IMG/VR virus record: IMGVR_UViG_3300032219_001489
Span: 1 to 37,122 of that record
Source of the DNA: a virus
Taxonomy: Duplodnaviria > Caudoviricetes
DNA: 37,122 nt
Strand: one strand, 5' to 3'
A model generated the notes under the pieces. It saw only the letters and a program-made list of their open reading frames with translations, was not told the DNA's origin and made no database searches. This document shows, one piece after another, positions 4,099-36,679 of the stretch. Position numbers and translations under genes: made by a program. Position 1 is the stretch's first letter, and each line of letters starts with the position of its first letter.

Positions 4099-4398
4099 TC
4101 AGAACGGAATGTCGTCCTCGGCAAGGTTGCTCTCGGTCTTCGGGCTCTCAACCCTCGTCTCTCGACCCTCGACCTTTTGTTGCGGCACCCATGGCTCTTT
4201 GACCTCACCCTTGATGTATTTCTGGCCCTCGATCTTGGATCCGACCTTGCCCTCGTTGATCCATCCGGCCAGATCATATTTGGTGCCGTCGGGCAGCTCG
4301 ATCGATCCGGAATAGACCGGCTTGCGGGGGTGATCGCCCTCGCGCTTAATGTTCTTGAAGAGGACAAAGGTGCCCTTGTTTTGGTTGCTTTCGCTCAT
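4099..4398 (-). CDS. Small SSB-like / DUF736-like protein
   Basis: KPVYSGSIE...YDLAGW core with acidic C-terminal EDDIPF tail typical of ssDNA-binding proteins. Confidence 0.65.
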   Translation of the reverse strand: MSESNQNKGTFVLFKNIKREGDHPRKPVYSGSIELPDGTKYDLAGWINEGKVGSKIEGQKYIKGEVKEPWVPQQKVEGRETRVESPKTESNLAEDDIPF

Positions 4399-4713: not shown

Positions 4714-4886
4714 GGGTGAGGAGAGACGGTGCGGGGGCTAGGCTCTAGGGGTTTAGGCTCTAGGCTGATAGGTTTGCTGGCCTTCGACTCTCGACCCTCG
4801 TCCCTCGACTTCTTAAAGATCGCGTCAAAATTCTCTCTGAACTTGGGGCCGAGATTCCTCGGGGCCGATCCCTTCCCCGCGCTCAT
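4710..4886 (-). CDS. 58-aa small phage protein (MSAGKGSAPRNLGPKFRENFDAIF...) with repeat-derived C-terminal extension
   Basis: Hand-translated; ATGA overlaps with both neighbours; GKGSxPR...NFDxIF pattern; below the ORF-track cutoff. Confidence 0.75.
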   Translation of the reverse strand: MSAGKGSAPRNLGPKFRENFDAIFKKSRDEGRESKASKPISLEPKPLEPSPRTVSPHP

Positions 4887-23180: not shown

Positions 23181-23498
23181 GTGAACGACTTTGATTGCCA
23201 AGCCTGCGGGGCCTGCTGTGCCCACAAGTGGAGCTGGCCCGTGCTGCGGCGGGACCGGAGCGATGCGGCAGGGATTCCTCCCGCGATGGTGCGGGATGAT
23301 TACCCACTACTCAGGACGGTGAGCAATCGGTGCGTGGCATTGATCGGACAAATCGGGGTCTCGACCGGGTGCTCGATCTACGCAGCCAGACCCGCCGCGT
23401 GTCAGGCTTTCACGCCCGGATCAGTGCTGTGCCTAGAGGCACGTCAGTTTGCTGGCCTCTCGACGCTCGACCCTTGCCCCTCGTCCCCTGCGGCATAG
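23181..23498 (+). CDS. YkgJ-like Cys-cluster (Zn/Fe-S) protein
   Basis: DCQACGACC...RCVAL...CSIYAARPAACQAF; only plus-strand gene inside the virion region. Confidence 0.85.
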   Translation: MNDFDCQACGACCAHKWSWPVLRRDRSDAAGIPPAMVRDDYPLLRTVSNRCVALIGQIGVSTGCSIYAARPAACQAFTPGSVLCLEARQFAGLSTLDPCPSSPAA

Positions 23499-24289
23499 CC
23501 GCAGAGAGGCATCTTGAGATTCACCCAGGGGGCGGTGGCGCTGACATTGTTCACCTGGCATTTCAGTTTGGGGCACTCCACCACACCGGGCTGATCGGGA
23601 TCGAGGCAGGCCGTGCAGGTGCGGTAGTAGTCGGGATTGCCCACCTTGTCGTTGTCGAGGACGGCCATCTCGCCATCGAGGCGGCCATAGCGTTGGGGAT
23701 CCAGCGGCACGTTATGGAGCTCGCAATAGGTGAAAATATCATCATCGGTCCATTCCCTAAGAGGATAGAGTGCGGCCGGGCAGGTCGGGTGGGCGATCAT
23801 GTCCAGGGCAAGAGGGACCTTGCCCGAGCAGGGATCTTCGTCCGAGGATTTCTGGCCATGGAAGGCGGCATCCCAGGGGAACTGCATCCCGCCAGTGGGG
23901 CGTGAAAGCCACTCCACCCCGCACTGGAAAGGTTCACCTTCACGGGGGGACTCCGTGCCACGGGCCAGCCAGAGGGAGAAATTCCCAAGCTGGAAGCGCT
24001 GCATGATGTCGATGCGGCCATTGCCACGATTCAGCCCCAGCTCCGAGGGAGGGAAGTCGTAGAGGGTGAGATTCCAGTCGGAGGCAATTTGCTGGGTGAA
24101 GTTAAGCCGACCACGCTGCCAGGGCTCTTGGAAAGTCACGACCGGCAAGTCATGACCCATGGAGCGAATCAGGTGGAGCAGGACTTGGGAATCCTTGCCC
24201 GAAGACCAGAGGATGCAGGGGTTGCGGAAATGGGCCAACCATCCCGCAAGACGCTCACGGGAAGTGGCGAGCTTCTCGGAGAAAAGCAT
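23444..24289 (-). CDS. PAPS-reductase-family (PP-loop) protein with C-terminal Cys cluster
   Basis: WSSGKDS, GQKSSD, YPLREWTDDDIFTY, CTACLD...ECPKLKC; TGATG-coupled to the upstream gene. Confidence 0.8.
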   Translation of the reverse strand: MLFSEKLATSRERLAGWLAHFRNPCILWSSGKDSQVLLHLIRSMGHDLPVVTFQEPWQRGRLNFTQQIASDWNLTLYDFPPSELGLNRGNGRIDIMQRFQLGNFSLWLARGTESPREGEPFQCGVEWLSRPTGGMQFPWDAAFHGQKSSDEDPCSGKVPLALDMIAHPTCPAALYPLREWTDDDIFTYCELHNVPLDPQRYGRLDGEMAVLDNDKVGNPDYYRTCTACLDPDQPGVVECPKLKCQVNNVSATAPWVNLKMPLCGYAAGDEGQGSSVERPAN

Positions 24290-25722: not shown

Positions 25723-26424
25723 TTAGAATTTGATGCAATAAAGCATCGCAATGTTACGGGGACGGGTTTCGGTTCCACCGGTCGAGGCATTGGCAACCGT
25801 GATTCCTGTGGTGGAAGAATTGATTGTCGTGGCAGCAGTTACAGATTGCGATCCTCCTCCGAGCCCAGATCCCGCTGTAATTCTTTGGGCATTTGATGTA
25901 TGCGTATGACCGGGATCGGTAACCGTTGCGGTATGCGTATGGCTCTTGAAATCGTCGGCCTGCTTAACTCCAAAAGTTCCGGCCGTAGCCACACCATCTG
26001 ATCCTGCACCTCGGACAAAGGATGCACGCAGGTCGGGAAGCGTAAAAGTTGTCGAACCATCACCTGTGCCATAAGTGGTTCCAATCGCCGTAAAGAGCGC
26101 TGCATAGGTGGTTCTGGAAATAGCTGCGCCATCGGCGGCCAACCATCCAGATGGGGCCGAGTTCATGGCAAAGGCTTGCACCGCTCCGGCTGGGAGCAGG
26201 GCCTGTTGCACTGTGGCGACGAGTTTTGCCAGCGTCACGGCTCCATCAGCGATCTTTGCCGTGGTGATATTTGAATCGGCAATCTTGGCCGCGGTTACTT
26301 GGCTGTCAGCAATGTCGGCCGTCTGAATGGCTGACACCGAGGCCCCGCCCGCCAGGCTGTTCAGCTTGGCCGGGGTGACCGTCTCATTATTGACGAACGT
26401 GTATCCGGTGGTGACGGTGGCCAT
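25723..26424 (-). CDS. Tail fibre with collar domain
   Basis: VTxAKIAD repeats, PAGAVQAFA...PSGWLAADGAAISRTTYAALF...LPDLRASFVRG, ETRPRNIAMLYCIK. Confidence 0.9.
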   Translation of the reverse strand: MATVTTGYTFVNNETVTPAKLNSLAGGASVSAIQTADIADSQVTAAKIADSNITTAKIADGAVTLAKLVATVQQALLPAGAVQAFAMNSAPSGWLAADGAAISRTTYAALFTAIGTTYGTGDGSTTFTLPDLRASFVRGAGSDGVATAGTFGVKQADDFKSHTHTATVTDPGHTHTSNAQRITAGSGLGGGSQSVTAATTINSSTTGITVANASTGGTETRPRNIAMLYCIKF

Positions 26425-26427
26425 GGG

Positions 26428-26478
26428 TTAGTGAGTCGAGAGACGAGGGTCGAGGGTCGAGAGCACGGAATGCCGCAT
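26428..26478 (-). CDS. Leader mini-ORF MRHSVLSTLDPRLSTH (16 aa)
   Basis: ATG 6 nt after the -10 box of promoter copy 3; stop 3 nt before the tail-fibre ATG. Confidence 0.55.
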   Translation of the reverse strand: MRHSVLSTLDPRLSTH

Positions 26479-26584
26479 GGGGAGAGGATAGGTGACGGGG
26501 GCGGTGAGCTTAATGGGGGAAATCAGGAGAGAAGAAGAAGGCCTTTTCGTTTTGGCTCTCGACCCTCGACCCTCGACCCTCGAC
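26435..26584. repeat. Inverted heptamer arrays (GTCGAGG)n 26435-26464 and (CCTCGAC)n 26555-26584
   Basis: 28/30 complementary, enclosing a 90-nt loop that holds promoter copy 3. Confidence 0.9.
26485..26520 (-). promoter_or_regulatory. Putative late promoter copy 3: TCCCCCATTAAGCTC-N15-TATCCT
   Basis: Exact motif 26506-26520. Confidence 0.8.
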
Positions 26585-26589
26585 ATCAA

Positions 26590-28719
26590 TTACGATTCCG
26601 TCCTAGACAGTCGTGAGGTATCGGCCGGGATGGTGGCGTCAGCAGTGACCGCACGGATCGTGGGGCGACCGCCCGAGGTGGTGACGGTCAGGTCGAGGTA
26701 GGTGCCGGGGCGGCGGATCGGGGCGCGGATAGTGTAGTCATTGTCCACCCCGGAGTTGGTGACCGTGGCAATGTGGGTCGTGTTGTCCGGATCGGTCGTG
26801 ACGGAGGCCACATCGACCGTGGTTCCGGCAGGCAAGTAGGCCGAGACCGCCACATTGCCCAGGCGCTTGCGGGCGAGCTGGCCGTAGAAATAGCGGCGGG
26901 TCGTGATCACGCCATTGACCAAGGCCTGGGCGCTGCCGGTGCCGGTGTCATCATTAGCGGTATCATACTCCTCAAGGAGGAAGATGGCCCCCGAGTTGGA
27001 GGCGGCAAAGAGTCGCCGCTGGGTGCCGTCATCGCTGACCACAAGCCGATCGAGGGCCGGGAGATTGGTATCGACCGATTCCCAGGACTCATTGAGCTGG
27101 TTGTAGATCAGCAGGGTGTTGGGTGAGGTGGCGTTGCCGGTCGGGACGGCAAGGTAGTAGCGGTTGTTAAAATAAACCGCATTGGAGGTGCCGACGGCCG
27201 ACTGGTTGATCGTGGAGAAGATGTCGGCAATCGGCTCGGAAAGCGGGAGCGTGTTCCCACGCAGGGCCAGATCGATCTGGCTATTGTCGAGTCGGTAGAC
27301 GCCCTGATCGGCCAGGAAATAAATGTAGGTTCCGGCCGTGGCCACCGTCATCCGGGCCGCGCACCCGACCTCATTGGTCAGGAGCTGGAGGCTGGAGGCG
27401 GCCGTATCGACCGAAACACCATCGGCGGCCAGGACAAGCGTCCCGAGGTAGATCGACTTGCGTAGGAACGCGATCAACTGTCGGTTGGCATAAGGATGGA
27501 GGGCGACCAGGTAATCGTTCGATCCCGTATTAGTCCGAAATCCCTTGAGCATCGGATCGTAGGTGTCGGGATCGAGCACGTCGGAGATGAGCAGGGTGTC
27601 ACGCCCGTTGCAAATCACGACCTGATTGTTGTAGTAGGCGGCAATGCCACCCGTCGGACTTACCATGCGCGAATAGGTCGGCCCAAGGGGGGAGGTGCCG
27701 GTCGGGACGCGGGCGAATCCGGAGGTGATTCCATCCCAGACCAAAGGGCAGCAGACCCGTTGGGCAAAGAGACTGGTCGAAGTGTTGGCCGAAGTGGCAC
27801 TCGGGACGGCCACCGTGAAGGTTGTCGGTTGTCCGCCTATTGCAGGAGTGGATGGCACCGTGGCGATGACGGCATCGAGGTTGAACCCACTCTGGTCACT
27901 TCCCGAAAGTCGGACGACTTCTCCCACGGCATAGCCATGGGCGACCGGGGTGGTGATGGTGGCGGTGCCGCTGGACTGGGTGATGGAGGTCACCTTCTGC
28001 TGGAGGTCACTGGACCGCCAGCGGAAGAGATAGAGCCGGTCAAAGGCCTGCAGCGTTGTGACGATGTCGCCGGGCAAGATCTGCTCGGTGATCGGCGTGA
28101 TGGGGTAACTCAGAGTCAGAAGGCTCGAACCCTGACGGTAGAGATAGGCCGTCGTCGGCCCGCACAGCACGATATACTCGTTGGCGGAGTCGTAGCGGGG
28201 TGAGGAGTAGACCCCGGCACCGAAGAGACCGCCCGAGTAATTAGTGAGCAGGACCGGCCATGTCCAGGTGATCGTCCCGGGAGGATTGGAGGCCGGGGAT
28301 CCCGAGACATTGTAGGTGAAGGTCGAGGTGCCCGTGATCGTCACCGTCCACTTGCCATTGTAGGCGCTGGCCGTGGCCCCGGTGACTCCCGCGATCTCGA
28401 CATAGAACTGCGAGCCATTTGAGCCAAGGCCATGGGGCGCGGCGGTCGTCACCGTGGCCACATTGCCGGACTGGGTGATCGAGCTGACCGTGTCGCCGCC
28501 GTGCAGGGTAAAGGGCACAGTGACGGGCGTGGCTCCGACCGAAATGCCTGCCGCGAGCCGCTTGGCCCCCTTGCGGGTCTGGGCAATGCCGCGATCGAGA
28601 CGGATATTCTGGGCGACCTGAAGGTAGCCGGAGGGGATCGTCAACGGATTGCGGCGGGACTGAAGGCCGAGGAAGGCGGTGTCGCCGTCCTTGACGATTG
28701 GGCTGGAAAGAGGGGGCAT
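26590..28719 (-). CDS. Tail nozzle / head-closure (P22 gp10, T7 gp12-like) protein with two inserted Thr-rich beta domains
   Basis: 709 aa; VGCAARMTV...IYFLADQGVY...LSEPI...RYYLAVP...LLIYN pattern; duplicated SITQSG..AT.TT..AHG modules. Confidence 0.72.
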   Translation of the reverse strand: MPPLSSPIVKDGDTAFLGLQSRRNPLTIPSGYLQVAQNIRLDRGIAQTRKGAKRLAAGISVGATPVTVPFTLHGGDTVSSITQSGNVATVTTAAPHGLGSNGSQFYVEIAGVTGATASAYNGKWTVTITGTSTFTYNVSGSPASNPPGTITWTWPVLLTNYSGGLFGAGVYSSPRYDSANEYIVLCGPTTAYLYRQGSSLLTLSYPITPITEQILPGDIVTTLQAFDRLYLFRWRSSDLQQKVTSITQSSGTATITTPVAHGYAVGEVVRLSGSDQSGFNLDAVIATVPSTPAIGGQPTTFTVAVPSATSANTSTSLFAQRVCCPLVWDGITSGFARVPTGTSPLGPTYSRMVSPTGGIAAYYNNQVVICNGRDTLLISDVLDPDTYDPMLKGFRTNTGSNDYLVALHPYANRQLIAFLRKSIYLGTLVLAADGVSVDTAASSLQLLTNEVGCAARMTVATAGTYIYFLADQGVYRLDNSQIDLALRGNTLPLSEPIADIFSTINQSAVGTSNAVYFNNRYYLAVPTGNATSPNTLLIYNQLNESWESVDTNLPALDRLVVSDDGTQRRLFAASNSGAIFLLEEYDTANDDTGTGSAQALVNGVITTRRYFYGQLARKRLGNVAVSAYLPAGTTVDVASVTTDPDNTTHIATVTNSGVDNDYTIRAPIRRPGTYLDLTVTTSGGRPTIRAVTADATIPADTSRLSRTES

Positions 28720-28781
28720 GGGGAGAGAAAGGCTATTAGGCTGAAGTCTAAAGGCTGATAGGTCAGAAGCGGAGAAACCCC

Positions 28782-29231
28782 CTAGACGATGGATTGCTTG
28801 GCGGCGACTCGCTCACGCATTTCGGCGAGGCTCAGGCCGGTCCGCCACTGGATGTGAGGCTCATCGACGAATTTCCAGTTGCCTCCCCATTCCAGAGTTG
28901 GAAAGGTGGCAACGATCTTGCCGATGTCACGATAGAAGGGAGTGTCCTCCAGGTAGCTGCCGTCTAACGTGAAGAGCCCGACATCGACGGCGATTCCAAA
29001 GTTGTGATTACTCTCACCTCCGCGGGCCTTGGTGACAATCGGCCCTGGAGAGGTGCGCCCCTTGGTATAGAGGGCATCCTGCTCGGCATAAGTGCGTGTT
29101 CCGCAGATGTATTTGCATTCCACACCCTTCTCTTGGAAGTGCTTCTTCAGCTCGATCAGGAGATTGGCAAAAGTCGGTTGCACCTTGAGAAGCAAGGTGG
29201 AGAGGACTTGATCAGAGCGCTTATCGATCAT
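28782..29231 (-). CDS. Endolysin, peptidase M15 family (L-Ala-D-Glu peptidase-like), 149 aa
   Basis: RTYAEQDALY-KGRT, GGESNHNFGIAVD, WGGNW-FVDEPHIQ; start placed at MIDKRS. Confidence 0.9.
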   Translation of the reverse strand: MIDKRSDQVLSTLLLKVQPTFANLLIELKKHFQEKGVECKYICGTRTYAEQDALYTKGRTSPGPIVTKARGGESNHNFGIAVDVGLFTLDGSYLEDTPFYRDIGKIVATFPTLEWGGNWKFVDEPHIQWRTGLSLAEMRERVAAKQSIV

Positions 29232-29236
29232 GGGGG

Positions 29237-29641
29237 TTACTTGGCAGCGACACCCTTGAGGCGCTCGATGGTCCTCAGAGACCCGAGCCCGAGGAGCCCT
29301 AGAAGCGTGGTCATCAGAATATCCATCGGCAGTGCCACGACCGGGGCGGGCTGATGAGTCGCCACCGTGTAGAGCCATGAGAACATCGGCTGGCCAAGAG
29401 TCGCCCAGGCAAATCCAAGTGCCGAGACCCATCCGCAGAAGGGCCGCCACCCCGAGACGAAAAGGGACGGATTTTGAGCCTCGACGGCATTCACCTCGGC
29501 CTGGGCCTTGCTCTCGCTGGTGGCGAGCTTGAGCACCTCTAGCTCGAAGGACTCCTTGGCACGATTCTTGGCATCGGCGTCAGGGATGATCTTGTCGATC
29601 ACCTTGAGCCCGGCCGAGACCATGGAAGGGATGTCGTACAT
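29237..29641 (-). CDS. Holin, 3TM/GTA-type
   Basis: IDKIIPD...SLFVSGWRPFCGWV...LGLLGLGSLRTIERLKG. Confidence 0.85.
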   Translation of the reverse strand: MYDIPSMVSAGLKVIDKIIPDADAKNRAKESFELEVLKLATSESKAQAEVNAVEAQNPSLFVSGWRPFCGWVSALGFAWATLGQPMFSWLYTVATHQPAPVVALPMDILMTTLLGLLGLGSLRTIERLKGVAAK

Positions 29642-29647
29642 GGGATC

Positions 29648-29926
29648 CTACCTCAGCAATTTCGTTTCGATTCTTTGTGTTCTTTGATCAATCTGCTGAA
29701 GGGTGGCTAGGGCGGCGGCGAGGATTTCCCTCCGTTGAGCATTGTCGCGCTGGATCTCTGCAATCCTTGAGTCCTGAGATTCATTCATTTTCTCCACCCG
29801 ATCCATCCGCAAGGGCAGAGCCGAGTAGAGGCTGAAAAAGGTGAAGAGGGCGGCGGCTCCCGAGCAGGCGGCGATCAGCGAGATGACTAGGGTCAGCGGG
29901 TGAGGAAGCGGGATTCCGGTGCTCAT
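29648..29926 (-). CDS. Membrane-anchored coiled-coil protein in the lysis cassette
   Basis: One N-terminal TM segment, coiled coil ending RIETKLLR. Confidence 0.65.
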   Translation of the reverse strand: MSTGIPLPHPLTLVISLIAACSGAAALFTFFSLYSALPLRMDRVEKMNESQDSRIAEIQRDNAQRREILAAALATLQQIDQRTQRIETKLLR

Positions 29927-29966
29927 GTTCCTTCAGCCTTCAGCCTTCAGCCTTCAGCCTTTCAGT

Positions 29967-30245
29967 CTAATGCTCCCAGCGGTAGGAGAGCGTGGGTGTG
30001 CCGGACGCGGCGAGGACCGAAAGCTGGGACGCATCACGCAGACCCGTGAAGGTCATGGTGGTGGCCGCCGGGACCGTGATGGCCGCGGATCCGGCATCCT
30101 GCTTGACTTGGACGGCGACCGCACCCGAGGCCGTGTTCGTGATATGGACACGGGTGGCGACCTGGGCGGTGAGGGCCGTGTAGGTGGAGGCATTGAGGGT
30201 GACCGCGTCGTTGCCTGCAGACTTGACGGTTGCGTAGGTATTCAT
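29967..30245 (-). CDS. Small beta-rich putative virion protein
   Basis: 92 aa, Thr/Ala/Val-rich. Confidence 0.65.
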   Translation of the reverse strand: MNTYATVKSAGNDAVTLNASTYTALTAQVATRVHITNTASGAVAVQVKQDAGSAAITVPAATTMTFTGLRDASQLSVLAASGTPTLSYRWEH

Positions 30246-30298
30246 GAGAGAAGTCGAGTGTCGAGAGCCAAGGGTCGAGGGCCGGAATAGCCCTTCAT
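30242..30298 (-). CDS. Leader mini-ORF MKGYSGPRPLALDTRLLS (18 aa)
   Basis: ATG 6 nt after the -10 box of promoter copy 4; TGA overlaps the next ATG (ATGA). Confidence 0.55.
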   Translation of the reverse strand: MKGYSGPRPLALDTRLLS

Positions 30299-30304
30299 GG
30301 GGAG

Positions 30305-30340
30305 AGGATAGGTGATGGGAGCACCGAGCTTAATGGGGGA
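30305..30340 (-). promoter_or_regulatory. Putative late promoter copy 4: TCCCCCATTAAGCTC-N15-TATCCT
   Basis: Exact motif 30326-30340. Confidence 0.8.
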
Positions 30341-30366
30341 TATTCATCCGCACTGCGGATGAATAT
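30340..30366. repeat. Palindrome ATATTCATCCGCA-C-TGCGGATGAATAT; near-identical copy at 36297-36319
   Basis: Perfect inverted repeat abutting the promoter motif. Confidence 0.85.
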
Positions 30367-30408
30367 GCGTCGAGGGTCGTCCCTCGTACCTCGTCCCTCG
30401 ACTTGGCC

Positions 30409-30633
30409 CTATCTGTTCAGCAGGTAAGCCAGCCCCACCGCAATCATCACGACGGCCCCGGTGATCTCGCCCTCTTCGCGGAGTCCGCGGTTCACCAGCT
30501 CCGTACGGGTCTCGTTGTAGGCGATCATGTGGCAGACGGTGCCGGGGTATTTCAGCGGGCGGTCAACCAGGACGCGACCGCGGGCAATCGGGTAGCACCT
30601 GATTAAGAGCCAGAGATCGCGGAGGAGCTTCAT
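30409..30633 (-). CDS. Hypothetical protein
   Basis: 74 aa, hydrophobic C-terminus, 3 nt after the upstream stop. Confidence 0.6.
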   Translation of the reverse strand: MKLLRDLWLLIRCYPIARGRVLVDRPLKYPGTVCHMIAYNETRTELVNRGLREEGEITGAVVMIAVGLAYLLNR

Positions 30634-30636
30634 TAG

Positions 30637-30894
30637 CTAGGCCGAGTGCTGGGCAATCAGGTCGCGGAGTTGCTGTTGAACTTCAGCGGGGAGGAGTGCT
30701 GCGGCACGGAATGCGTCCTCATTTTCACGCATGGTGCGCTCCACCTCACTCGCATCGTAGGAGGCAAGGACCTCCTCCACTCGGCTTTGAAAATACGCTT
30801 CGGGCGTGGTCTGCTCGGCACCCTCGACGCTATTGAGGCGAGAGACGATGGCGTTGAGGCCGGAGAGCTTGGATGGATCAATCGTTAGTTGCAT
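30637..30894 (-). CDS. Hypothetical protein (85 aa, MQLTIDPSK...), possible fibre chaperone
   Basis: Helical acidic ORF downstream of the fibre gene. Confidence 0.6.
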   Translation of the reverse strand: MQLTIDPSKLSGLNAIVSRLNSVEGAEQTTPEAYFQSRVEEVLASYDASEVERTMRENEDAFRAAALLPAEVQQQLRDLIAQHSA

Positions 30895-31051
30895 CAGATT
30901 CTGAGGGTTCGGGTTTGATTGCGGAGGCGAGGACTTCGATTGCTTGCTGGATAGCAATAAATCCCTGTCTGGAGATTGCGTTGATGTTCCGAGGCTCCAG
31001 AGCTTCGGATAGGAGTTGCAGGGCTTGGGTTGGTGTCATGGTGTTGTTCAT
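30878..31051 (-). CDS. 57-aa hypothetical protein MNNTMTPTQALQLLSEALE...
   Basis: Hand-translated; starts 4 nt after the fibre stop and overlaps the next start. Confidence 0.55.
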   Translation of the reverse strand: MNNTMTPTQALQLLSEALEPRNINAISRQGFIAIQQAIEVLASAIKPEPSESDATND

Positions 31052-31055
31052 AAGA

Positions 31056-32222
31056 TTAGGCGAGGGCTACAGACTTCATCGTGCCGCCGTCGTTGACCCA
31101 TAGTTTAACGGTTCCTGAGGTTGTGTTCTTGTAAATGGCCCACGTATTGCTACCAAGATCGGTGGTTGTGGGGTCTGTAGTTAGCGAATACCAAACACCT
31201 CTAAAGGAGTTGAAAGAAATTGTCTGGTTCACTGCAAACTGGAATGTTCTCGAGGTGTCAGAGCAATAAACGTCTATTCCTTCTGCTGAATTAAGCCTGA
31301 CCCTTCTAGCCGTGCCTGTTCCCGCCTTTTGCGTTCCAATGGTCAGAGAGTTTGAATTAGTAGTCCAATCGAATACGCCACGCTCGTAGTTGCTTGCGTC
31401 CGTGTAGGTGTTGTAGAGACGGAAGGTCTGTGCATTGGTGCCGTTTCGCTGGGCAAGCGTGTTGGCTGCGTCTCTTGTTAAAAATAAATCAGACGTTCCA
31501 AGCTCGACGTTGGCGTTGCTTTTCCAAAGGATAGAAGCGTTTGAACCAACCGCAAGACCCGTTGTGCTAATTTGCGATCCTGTGCCACCAAAAACAGAGT
31601 TCGAGGCGTAAACAGCAATCGCCGTAACGGTTCCAGTCTTGGAGATCTTAAACCTGCTTGTGCCTGCGGTCTGTACGTCGAAAAGCACACTAGCCGCATT
31701 GCTCGCCGTGTCGGTGATGTTGAGCAAGATGCCCTGTGCAACGCCCGTCGTATTCCAAGTTCCCGTCAAGTTCAGAAGAGGGGTCGTGTTCGCTCCCGTG
31801 ACGGAGTAGCTTGCCGTCAGCGCGGAGGTATTTGCGGCGGCGGTGATGCTCTGGCCTGCGGTGAAATTGTTGTTCTGGTTGTCGAGAGCGACGTTGTTGG
31901 AGAGTCGTGCATCCGCAAGGGTTCCGGTCAGGTCTGCCGCCGAACCGCTGGTGGCGACCGAGGCGAGGCCGGTGATCTGGGAAGAAGCAAGGGTCAGGGC
32001 ATCGCTTCCCCCGCTGGCGTGACTTGAAGCGTGGGCCGAGGGCGCAAAGGTTGAAGGGGTTCCCGTGAGGTCTGCGTAGGCACCGGAGAAGAGGCTCGGC
32101 TTGTTAAGGATCGCCGCCACACCTGTTGAAGCGTTCCAATCGGAGTTGACCTGACTGCCGCCAGAACCTCCCGATCCCGCCTGATCGAGCTTTCCTGTAA
32201 AGGGATTGAAAACCCAGGCCAT
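31056..32222 (-). CDS. Tail fibre/spike, putative receptor-binding protein
   Basis: FNPFTGKLD N-terminus, SDWNA...ILNKP, HASSHASGGSDAL and LASVATSGS fibre motifs; lower-GC C-terminal half. Confidence 0.72.
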   Translation of the reverse strand: MAWVFNPFTGKLDQAGSGGSGGSQVNSDWNASTGVAAILNKPSLFSGAYADLTGTPSTFAPSAHASSHASGGSDALTLASSQITGLASVATSGSAADLTGTLADARLSNNVALDNQNNNFTAGQSITAAANTSALTASYSVTGANTTPLLNLTGTWNTTGVAQGILLNITDTASNAASVLFDVQTAGTSRFKISKTGTVTAIAVYASNSVFGGTGSQISTTGLAVGSNASILWKSNANVELGTSDLFLTRDAANTLAQRNGTNAQTFRLYNTYTDASNYERGVFDWTTNSNSLTIGTQKAGTGTARRVRLNSAEGIDVYCSDTSRTFQFAVNQTISFNSFRGVWYSLTTDPTTTDLGSNTWAIYKNTTSGTVKLWVNDGGTMKSVALA

Positions 32223-36364: not shown

Positions 36365-36679
36365 TTAGGCCTGCCTCTGCCTCATGGCTTCGGCACGCAG
36401 GTTGAGCAGATACTCTTCCAGGCGGTCGAGCCCGTTCTCTCCGCCGAGGGCAAAGATGGTCTCCCGCTCGCTCTTGATGATGGCCTTGGCCTCGCTCCGC
36501 GCCTCGGTTCGCGCACGGTCGATCACCTCGAGGACTGCCTGCAGCACCGGATGATCAGCATCGACGGCCAAGGCACCGACGAGGGCCGCGTCATCCATGC
36601 GAGTTGCGCGGAGAATTTCAACCCGAGGTTGAAATATGGCCAAGAGTCGAGAGACGAGGGTCGAGAGCAGCTTCTTCAT
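36365..36679 (-). CDS. Hypothetical protein between portal and scaffold
   Basis: 104 aa, ATGA-coupled. Confidence 0.7.
   Translation of the reverse strand: MKKLLSTLVSRLLAIFQPRVEILRATRMDDAALVGALAVDADHPVLQAVLEVIDRARTEARSEAKAIIKSERETIFALGGENGLDRLEEYLLNLRAEAMRQRQA

What the first reader, a model, noticed from the sequence alone, without database searches (positions are those of the whole stretch)
28719..29969. Whole lysis cassette enclosed by a second, orthogonal inverted heptamer pair
Seen: stop of the 92-aa gene (29967) is 1 nt from a (CTGAAGG)n arm (29965-29930). The three lysis genes (29926 to 28782) follow, then a complementary degenerate arm (28769-28727) and, 7 nt later, the nozzle ATG 28719. 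This is a different repeat family from the TCGAGGG arms nearby, so the brackets would not cross-pair. Inference: a 1.2-kb loop-out could let ribosomes or processing bypass holin/endolysin, tuning lysis timing separately from tail genes on the same transcript. Alternatively it records how the cassette was inserted.
Basis: partly seen in the sequence, partly recalled or inferred. Interest (0 to 1): 0.8.

Follow-up and report, generated by a model that had tools for sequence, protein, structure and literature searches.

The report
Heptamer repeat arms around lysis genes
Two mirror-image runs of a 7-base repeat do enclose this freshwater phage's lysis genes and are predicted to pair, but such runs sit at many gene boundaries in this phage family and relatives lack this bracket, so it is likely a by-product of repeat spread rather than a built-in lysis timer.

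Summary
A purine arm (29965-29930) follows the 92-aa gene's stop and a pyrimidine arm (28769-28727) ends 7 nt before the next ATG. They are each other's best partner on the whole sense strand (-51 kcal/mol; 0 of 1000 shuffles reach it). They are two copies of a fast-turnover family of 7/8-base gene-boundary repeats: purine arms follow stops (46 of 62) and pyrimidine arms precede starts (68 of 126), the polarity published for Xanthomonas heptamers. The full bracket is in 0 of 22 related lysis modules. The closest relatives hold an unrelated lysis module in this slot without it, and a 96%-identical holin-endolysin pair runs straight into the next gene with no arm. Long-range cognate pairs are not enriched in two tests. 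One post-hoc signal remains: purine arms touching an ATG are mostly at lysis genes (5 of 6 lineages), and in 3 a predicted duplex encloses the holin. 22 further, mostly arm-poor contigs did not repeat it. Verdict: new member of a known, unexplained repeat class. A conserved lysis switch is not supported; recruited holin damping stays possible (about 15%).

The parts
29930..29965 (-). Purine-rich arm, (CTGAAGG)n family, between the 92-aa gene's stop and the first lysis-module ATG
28727..28769 (-). Pyrimidine-rich degenerate arm of the same family (CCTTCAG-type), ending 7 nt before ATG 28719
29967..30245 (-). 92-aa gene of unknown function upstream of the module; 96-98% identical in L001/L002, which lack the arm after it
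29648..29926 (-). First module gene, 92 aa, one N-terminal hydrophobic stretch then a polar region; lysis role inferred from synteny with the holin and a weak Rz-like PHROG hit
29829..29846 (-). Pyrimidine-rich coding stretch predicted as a weaker local partner of the purine arm (-23 kcal/mol) before the 3' arm is transcribed
29237..29641 (-). Holin, GTA_holin_3TM family (PF11351)
28782..29231 (-). Endolysin, M15 peptidase (PF13539/PF02557; PHROG endolysin)
26590..28719 (-). 709-aa conserved virion gene; 'nozzle' inferred from position and size only
30305..30339 (-). Promoter-like motif (TTAAGC, 17 nt, TATCCT), five copies in the window; inferred start of the transcript that carries both arms
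   Evidence: (D2)
30254..30402 (-). Neighbouring TCGAGGG-family purine and pyrimidine arms around that motif; in L001/L002 the purine arm is replaced by an octamer arm
26429..26583 (-). Second TCGAGGG-family arm pair, after the 709-aa gene's stop and before the collar gene's ATG

Best explanation
The two arms are copies of a fast-changing gene-boundary repeat that sits purine-rich after stop codons and pyrimidine-rich before start codons, and the bracket around the lysis genes is likely a by-product of that polarity rather than a dedicated switch. Shown: the polarity, the turnover of arm families at one junction, the absence of the bracket in relatives, and that the lysis module with both arms is a block with no homology to the closest relatives' slot. 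Inferred: the module likely came in by recombination in the conserved ends of the two flanking genes, carrying the arms as passengers. The pyrimidine arm likely works on its own as an open leader for Shine-Dalgarno-free initiation of the 709-aa gene. The purine arm is likely neutral or slightly lowers initiation of the first lysis gene. The predicted 32-pair helix may form on unoccupied mRNA but is likely not required for lysis timing.
For: Polarity in 39 loci (471 kb): purine arms within 20 nt after a stop 46 of 62, within 25 nt before a start 6 of 62; pyrimidine arms 34 of 126 and 68 of 126 (Fisher p about 1e-9 each; loci not independent). The CCTTCAG type is the commonest pyrimidine arm, 29 of 110. 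0 of 22 related modules have the full bracket, 12 of them the homologous module type. L006 and L199 have the same-family purine arm at the same junction with no partner. A contig of run X3 matches holin+endolysin at 96% (31 differences in 860 nt) and has the endolysin stop overlapping the next ATG. The next-junction pyrimidine arm is cognate in 8 of 49 cases against 11.9 +/- 2.6 permuted. In 63 viral loci with the perfect array, convergent partners are enriched only within 150 nt (12 of 61 against 0 of 61); beyond that the counts are 12 against 17. At the junction before the 92-aa gene, close relatives swap the purine arm's family and keep the pyrimidine arm. Arm-free starts rarely have an SD-like site: 1 of 115, against 2.6% of random windows.
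Against: The arms are mutual best partners genome-wide and sit exactly on the module's two junctions. Purine arms touching an ATG are at lysis genes in 6 of 8 cases (5 of 6 lineages; p 0.0025, post hoc). 4 of those 5 have a cognate arm 0.4-1.2 kb downstream, against 7 of 58 other purine arms, and in 3 the helix is predicted to form and encloses the holin. The family detector missed the window's own degenerate 3' arm, so degenerate partners are undercounted. The leader role of pyrimidine arms is untested.
Confidence: 0.62

Rival explanations
1. Repeat arms are repeatedly recruited to damp or delay holin translation: the purine arm against a lysis gene's ATG pairs with a downstream pyrimidine arm, hides that start and brings the upstream stop next to the downstream start.
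For:: 5 of 6 lineages with a purine arm at an ATG have it at a first lysis gene or holin-type gene, with three repeat units and two unrelated module types. Predicted helices enclose the holin in the window, L041 and L050 (P 0.83-0.84). Endolysin starts carry 13 pyrimidine and 0 purine arms. The helix puts stop 29967 across from ATG 28719.
Against: The subset was defined post hoc and is small. Bracket ends differ (3 genes, 2 genes, holin only). L006/L199 have no partner, and in L002 a local arm wins (P 0.00). 0 of 22 further contigs show it, though only 3 carry family arms. Most relatives manage without arms. The predicted change in start accessibility is small for the first gene (0.34 to 0.24) and nil for the holin (0.31 to 0.29).
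Confidence: 0.17
2. The arms are the ends of a mobile cassette, or the sites of the recombination that inserted the lysis module.
For: The non-homologous block against L001-L003 runs from 29967 to about 28716 and includes both arms. In L002 a purine arm stands before a holin-like gene that is only 39% identical to L001's while its neighbours are nearly identical.
Against: No empty slot was seen in the 22 modules. The three genes have different closest relatives. The 96% holin-endolysin pair lacks the 3' arm. The differences extend past the arms into the last codons of the upstream gene and the first codons of the downstream gene. Arms occur inside the module in relatives.
Confidence: 0.1
3. 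The helix is an RNase III-type substrate that cuts the lysis message out of the late transcript, as for intervening sequences in 23S rRNA.
For: A 32-pair, near-continuous helix is long enough (RNase III substrate size recalled).
Against: Not conserved. No Rfam match. Cutting would leave the 709-aa gene with about 7-25 nt of leader.
Confidence: 0.07

Closest known systems
GGGAATC / GGGGA(C/T)T heptamer repeats of Xanthomonas and Nostoc (Rehm et al. 2015, PMC4692102; passages read)
   Same: Intergenic heptamer runs of about 4 units; purine strand on the sense strand just after stops, its complement just before starts; convergent inverted pairs; length and sequence variation between relatives.
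   Different: Here the host is a 37-kb phage, several 7- and 8-base families coexist and replace each other at one junction, the units have no G-tracts for quadruplexes, and one pair spans three genes.
TAACTGA direct repeats of Beggiatoaceae, Cyanobacteria and Bacteroidetes (MacGregor 2015, PMC4679880; abstract, introduction and passages read)
   Same: 2-6 heptamer copies ending a few bases before start codons, mostly without an SD site; translational role proposed, untested.
   Different: One dominant unit and few post-stop copies there; several families and abundant post-stop arms here.
Heptamer-armed four-helix-bundle / 23S rRNA intervening-sequence cassettes (earlier scan notes; PMC4990558 seen as search listing only)
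   Same: Layout stop - purine arm - gene(s) - pyrimidine arm - start.
   Different: The enclosed genes are lysis genes. No such protein family was hit among the 35 window proteins scanned, and the arms do not travel with the enclosed genes.
TIR-flanked tyrosine-transposase genes (TIRtrons; PMC3733652, passages read)
   Same: Inverted arms around genes, related to dispersed repeat families.
   Different: No transposase between the arms; the arms are tandem heptamers.
Ribosome bypassing in T4 gene 60 and long-range translational coupling (recalled, no call)
   Same: A structure would bring a stop next to a downstream start.
   Different: The known bypass covers about 50 nt inside one gene with matched codons; here it is 1.2 kb with three intact genes and is not conserved.

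Membership tests
Gene-boundary heptamer repeats (Xanthomonas/Nostoc/Beggiatoa type) | Tandem 7-base units, about 3-6 copies, in excess of chance | tested here: met
   12 period-7 arrays at threshold 15 against 0-1 in shuffles; other periods 0-4
Gene-boundary heptamer repeats (Xanthomonas/Nostoc/Beggiatoa type) | Intergenic; purine strand after stops, pyrimidine strand before starts | tested here: met
   46 of 62 and 68 of 126; 11 of 224 arms inside called ORFs
Gene-boundary heptamer repeats (Xanthomonas/Nostoc/Beggiatoa type) | Close convergent pairs; variation between relatives | tested here: met
   12 of 61 against 0 of 61 within 150 nt; arm swaps between the window and L001/L002
Gene-boundary heptamer repeats (Xanthomonas/Nostoc/Beggiatoa type) | G-quadruplex-forming unit (Xanthomonas subtype only) | tested here: not met
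   The unit CTGAAGG has no run of three G
Mobile cassette with terminal inverted repeats | Empty site in relatives | tested here: not met
   The slot is filled in all 22 modules examined
Mobile cassette with terminal inverted repeats | Arms travel with the enclosed genes | tested here: not met
   0 of 12 homologous modules have the bracket; the X3 contig lacks the 3' arm
Mobile cassette with terminal inverted repeats | Own transposase or four-helix-bundle gene | tested here: not met
   None between the arms; none among 35 proteins scanned, which are not all ORFs of the window
Long-range cis-regulatory RNA helix | Stable predicted duplex | tested here: met
   -51 kcal/mol, P 0.83
Long-range cis-regulatory RNA helix | Conserved position with compensatory change | tested here: not met
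   0 of 22 at the same ends; partial holin-enclosing pairs in L041 and L050
Long-range cis-regulatory RNA helix | Pairing or processing seen in RNA | not testable with these tools
   No RNA run was available to lay

The most novel reading that the evidence does not exclude
Selfish heptamer arms are domesticated again and again in this phage family as a holin brake. A purine arm lands on a lysis-gene start, pairs with a downstream pyrimidine arm, loops the holin out of the late message and couples the flanking virion genes, so lysis timing is retuned by repeat turnover. That would give the unexplained bacterial heptamer repeats a testable function.
Probability: 0.15. Interest if true: 0.75.

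Novelty: new member of a known kind. Interest (0 to 1): 0.33.

Why it matters
Heptamer repeats at bacterial gene boundaries are known and unexplained. This phage family offers many close genomes in which arms appear, vanish and swap family at the same junction. The comparisons indicate that position and purine/pyrimidine polarity are kept while the pairing partner is not, which points to single-strand effects on translation or to selfish spread. It also warns that a gene block 'bracketed' by such arms can arise by chance. If the residual holin signal is real, it would be a new route to tuning lysis time.

Tried and rejected
No RNA holder was listed for the stretch. Contigs of 7 DNA runs showed no joint skipping 28770-29929; contigs drop rare variants, so this is not counted as evidence. 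The sigma-70 consensus scan found no promoter or terminator in 26000-31200; the promoter-like motif falls below its thresholds. Rfam: no match. A metagenome scan with the first module gene found no relative. The genome-contig scan gave one distant locus (33% identity) and no host. The fold of the 709-aa protein was too poor to search (pLDDT 44.5); PDB sequence and atlas searches gave no name, and the atlas gave none for the first module gene. A loose duplex threshold (-18) did not separate families and was replaced. The replication set for the holin signal was mostly arm-poor. Literature searches found no paper on heptamer arms around phage lysis genes; subscription journals are mostly outside the library and no supplements were read. 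Rejected: assembly artefact (a 17.5-kb contig of X1, possibly the source run, matches 26000-31992 without differences, and an X2 contig runs from the 92-aa gene 13 nt into the arm); intrinsic terminator (no T-run hairpin); cross-pairing with TCGAGGG arms.
Full report
Setting. The window is a complete 37-kb phage record with a 123-nt terminal repeat. It encodes an SU10-type capsid protein, a DnaB helicase and an integrase; most genes are on the minus strand. The five DnaB hits with a taxon name among 120 listed are Chthoniobacterales or Verrucomicrobia at 43-46% identity, so a verrucomicrobial host is inferred, not shown. Laid runs labelled lake or freshwater hold close relatives.

Observation. 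The coordinates are exact. The purine arm 29965-29930 fills the 37-nt gap between the 92-aa gene and the first module gene. The degenerate pyrimidine arm 28769-28727 lies in the 62-nt gap between the endolysin and the 709-aa gene. The duplex has 32 pairs and -51 kcal/mol. Each arm is the other's best partner on the sense strand, and 0 of 1000 shuffles reach that energy. Folding of the whole region keeps the helix (mean P 0.83). TCGAGGG-family arms do not cross-pair. A promoter-like motif (TTAAGC, 17 nt, TATCCT) at 30339-30305 has five copies in the window and 18 in six relatives; it likely starts the transcript that carries both arms.

The arms are not special to this place. The window has 12-16 period-7 arrays, against 0-2 in shuffles. 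In the window plus 38 related loci (471 kb, not independent, genes called by my own rough script) there are 66 purine, 133 pyrimidine and 25 mixed arms of period 7 or 8. Of those outside ORFs, purine arms lie within 20 nt after a stop in 46 of 62 cases and pyrimidine arms within 25 nt before a start in 68 of 126. Rehm et al. report this polarity, and convergent pairs, for Xanthomonas and Nostoc heptamers (PMC4692102, passages). MacGregor reports pre-start heptamers in Beggiatoaceae (PMC4679880, abstract, introduction and passages). Given this polarity, any purine arm followed by a pyrimidine arm of its family looks like a bracket, and the CCTTCAG type is the commonest pyrimidine arm here (29 of 110). 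Arms turn over fast: before the 92-aa gene, L001/L002 have an octamer purine arm where the window has TCGAGGG, with the same pyrimidine arm beyond it.

Relatives. L001-L003 (93-98% identical 709-aa protein) have a non-homologous lysis module in the same slot, with a GH108 endolysin, a 7-nt spacer after the 92-aa gene and no such bracket. Homology to the window ends at 29968 and resumes at about 28715, so module and arms form one exchanged block; the direction of exchange is unknown. Of 38 related loci, 22 showed both ends of a lysis module (16 dropped as incomplete or lacking one); 0 of 22 have the full bracket, including 0 of 12 with the window's module type. In those, arms of the same family sit inside the module, for example before the endolysin in L036, L037, L039, L040, L041 and L050. 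L006 and L199 have a same-family purine arm at the same junction but no partner; L199 has 3 nt between endolysin and the next ATG. A 5.8-kb contig of run X3 matches holin plus endolysin at 96%, and its endolysin stop overlaps the next ATG with no arm. An X4 contig carries a match to the 3' arm in front of a different gene start.

Tests for long-range pairing as a rule. In 21 of the 39 loci (18 arm-poor or redundant ones dropped), the next-junction pyrimidine arm was cognate for 8 of 49 purine arms, against 11.9 +/- 2.6 after permutation; upstream it was 12 of 47 against 11.7. That detector missed the window's own degenerate arm, which would make it 9 of 49. In 63 viral loci with the perfect array, convergent partners were enriched within 150 nt (12 of 61 against 0 of 61) but not beyond: 2/59 against 3/58, 3/54 against 5/58 and 7/47 against 9/49.

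Results against my reading. Purine arms that touch an ATG break the polarity rule, and they cluster at lysis genes: 6 purine and 16 pyrimidine arms at 99 lysis starts, against 2 and 65 at 230 other starts (p 0.0025; 5 of 6 lineages). Four of those five lineages have a cognate arm 0.4-1.2 kb downstream, against 7 of 58 other purine arms; none has one upstream. The helix is predicted to form in the window, L041 and L050, each time enclosing the holin, but not in L002, where a local arm wins. The subset is post hoc and small, and the ends differ. Nine purine-arm-before-ATG candidates from the wider virus set preceded no gene that I could recognise by eye as a holin (no family scan was run on them). 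22 further contigs gave 0 cases, but only 3 of them carried family arms. The signal is neither confirmed nor excluded.

Mechanism. Shown: polarity, turnover, module exchange and non-conservation of the bracket. Inferred: the module entered by recombination in conserved flanking gene ends, with the arms as passengers. Late-gene starts lack SD sites (1 of 115 arm-free starts), so the pyrimidine arm likely acts as an open leader for the 709-aa gene (predicted unpaired 0.65-0.73 under local folding). The purine arm may slightly lower initiation of the first module gene: 0.33 unpaired against 0.46 +/- 0.11 for shuffled arms, which is not significant. How the arms spread was not resolved. Earlier scan notes tie such arms to four-helix-bundle cassettes, which I did not test; no such family was hit among 35 window proteins.

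Verdict. The feature is real and belongs to a known but unexplained repeat class, here in a phage family. A conserved lysis loop-out is not supported; repeated recruitment as a holin brake keeps about 15%. My seven literature searches found no description of such arms around phage lysis genes. Supplements were not read and could list further cases.

Noticed in passing
window 36294, 30339, 26519, 23137, 2013 (minus strand); L001-L003, L005, L008, L011: Conserved promoter-like motif CCCCCA-TTAAGC, 17 nt, TATCCT/TAGAAT/GATACT before the scaffold, 92-aa, collar, ejection-region and putative portal genes; 18 copies in six relatives. L011 has one directly before the 709-aa gene, which would uncouple it from the lysis genes.
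   Followed up: partly
slot between the 92-aa and 709-aa genes; L001-L012, L036-L051: Hypervariable lysis slot: at least three unrelated endolysin types, two holin types, single-gene swaps, and extra genes (a Peptidase_S74 protein in L006, a 215-219-aa gene in L008/L011).
   Followed up: partly
L038 3760-3870 and 6447-6580: Two junctions are inverted mosaics of two octamer families (purine C + pyrimidine F; purine F + pyrimidine C), as if a whole two-armed element had been copied in opposite orientations.
   Followed up: partly
L012, L041, L040, L037: Adjacent purine and pyrimidine arms in one junction often share the period (7 or 8) but are poorly complementary (-3 to -15 kcal/mol).
   Followed up: no
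window 36632-36668, 4142-4176, 4735-4812; L001 4688-4719: Arms embedded in ORF ends or short ORFs, read as low-complexity peptide.
   Followed up: no
window 11486-8739 starts versus late-gene starts: Four replication-region genes have strong SD-like sites (-10 to -11.6 kcal/mol) while late genes have none at that level.
   Followed up: no
window 23444-24289 and 23181-23498: A PAPS-reductase-domain gene and an opposite-strand CxxCxxCC gene sit inside the virion gene block.
   Followed up: no
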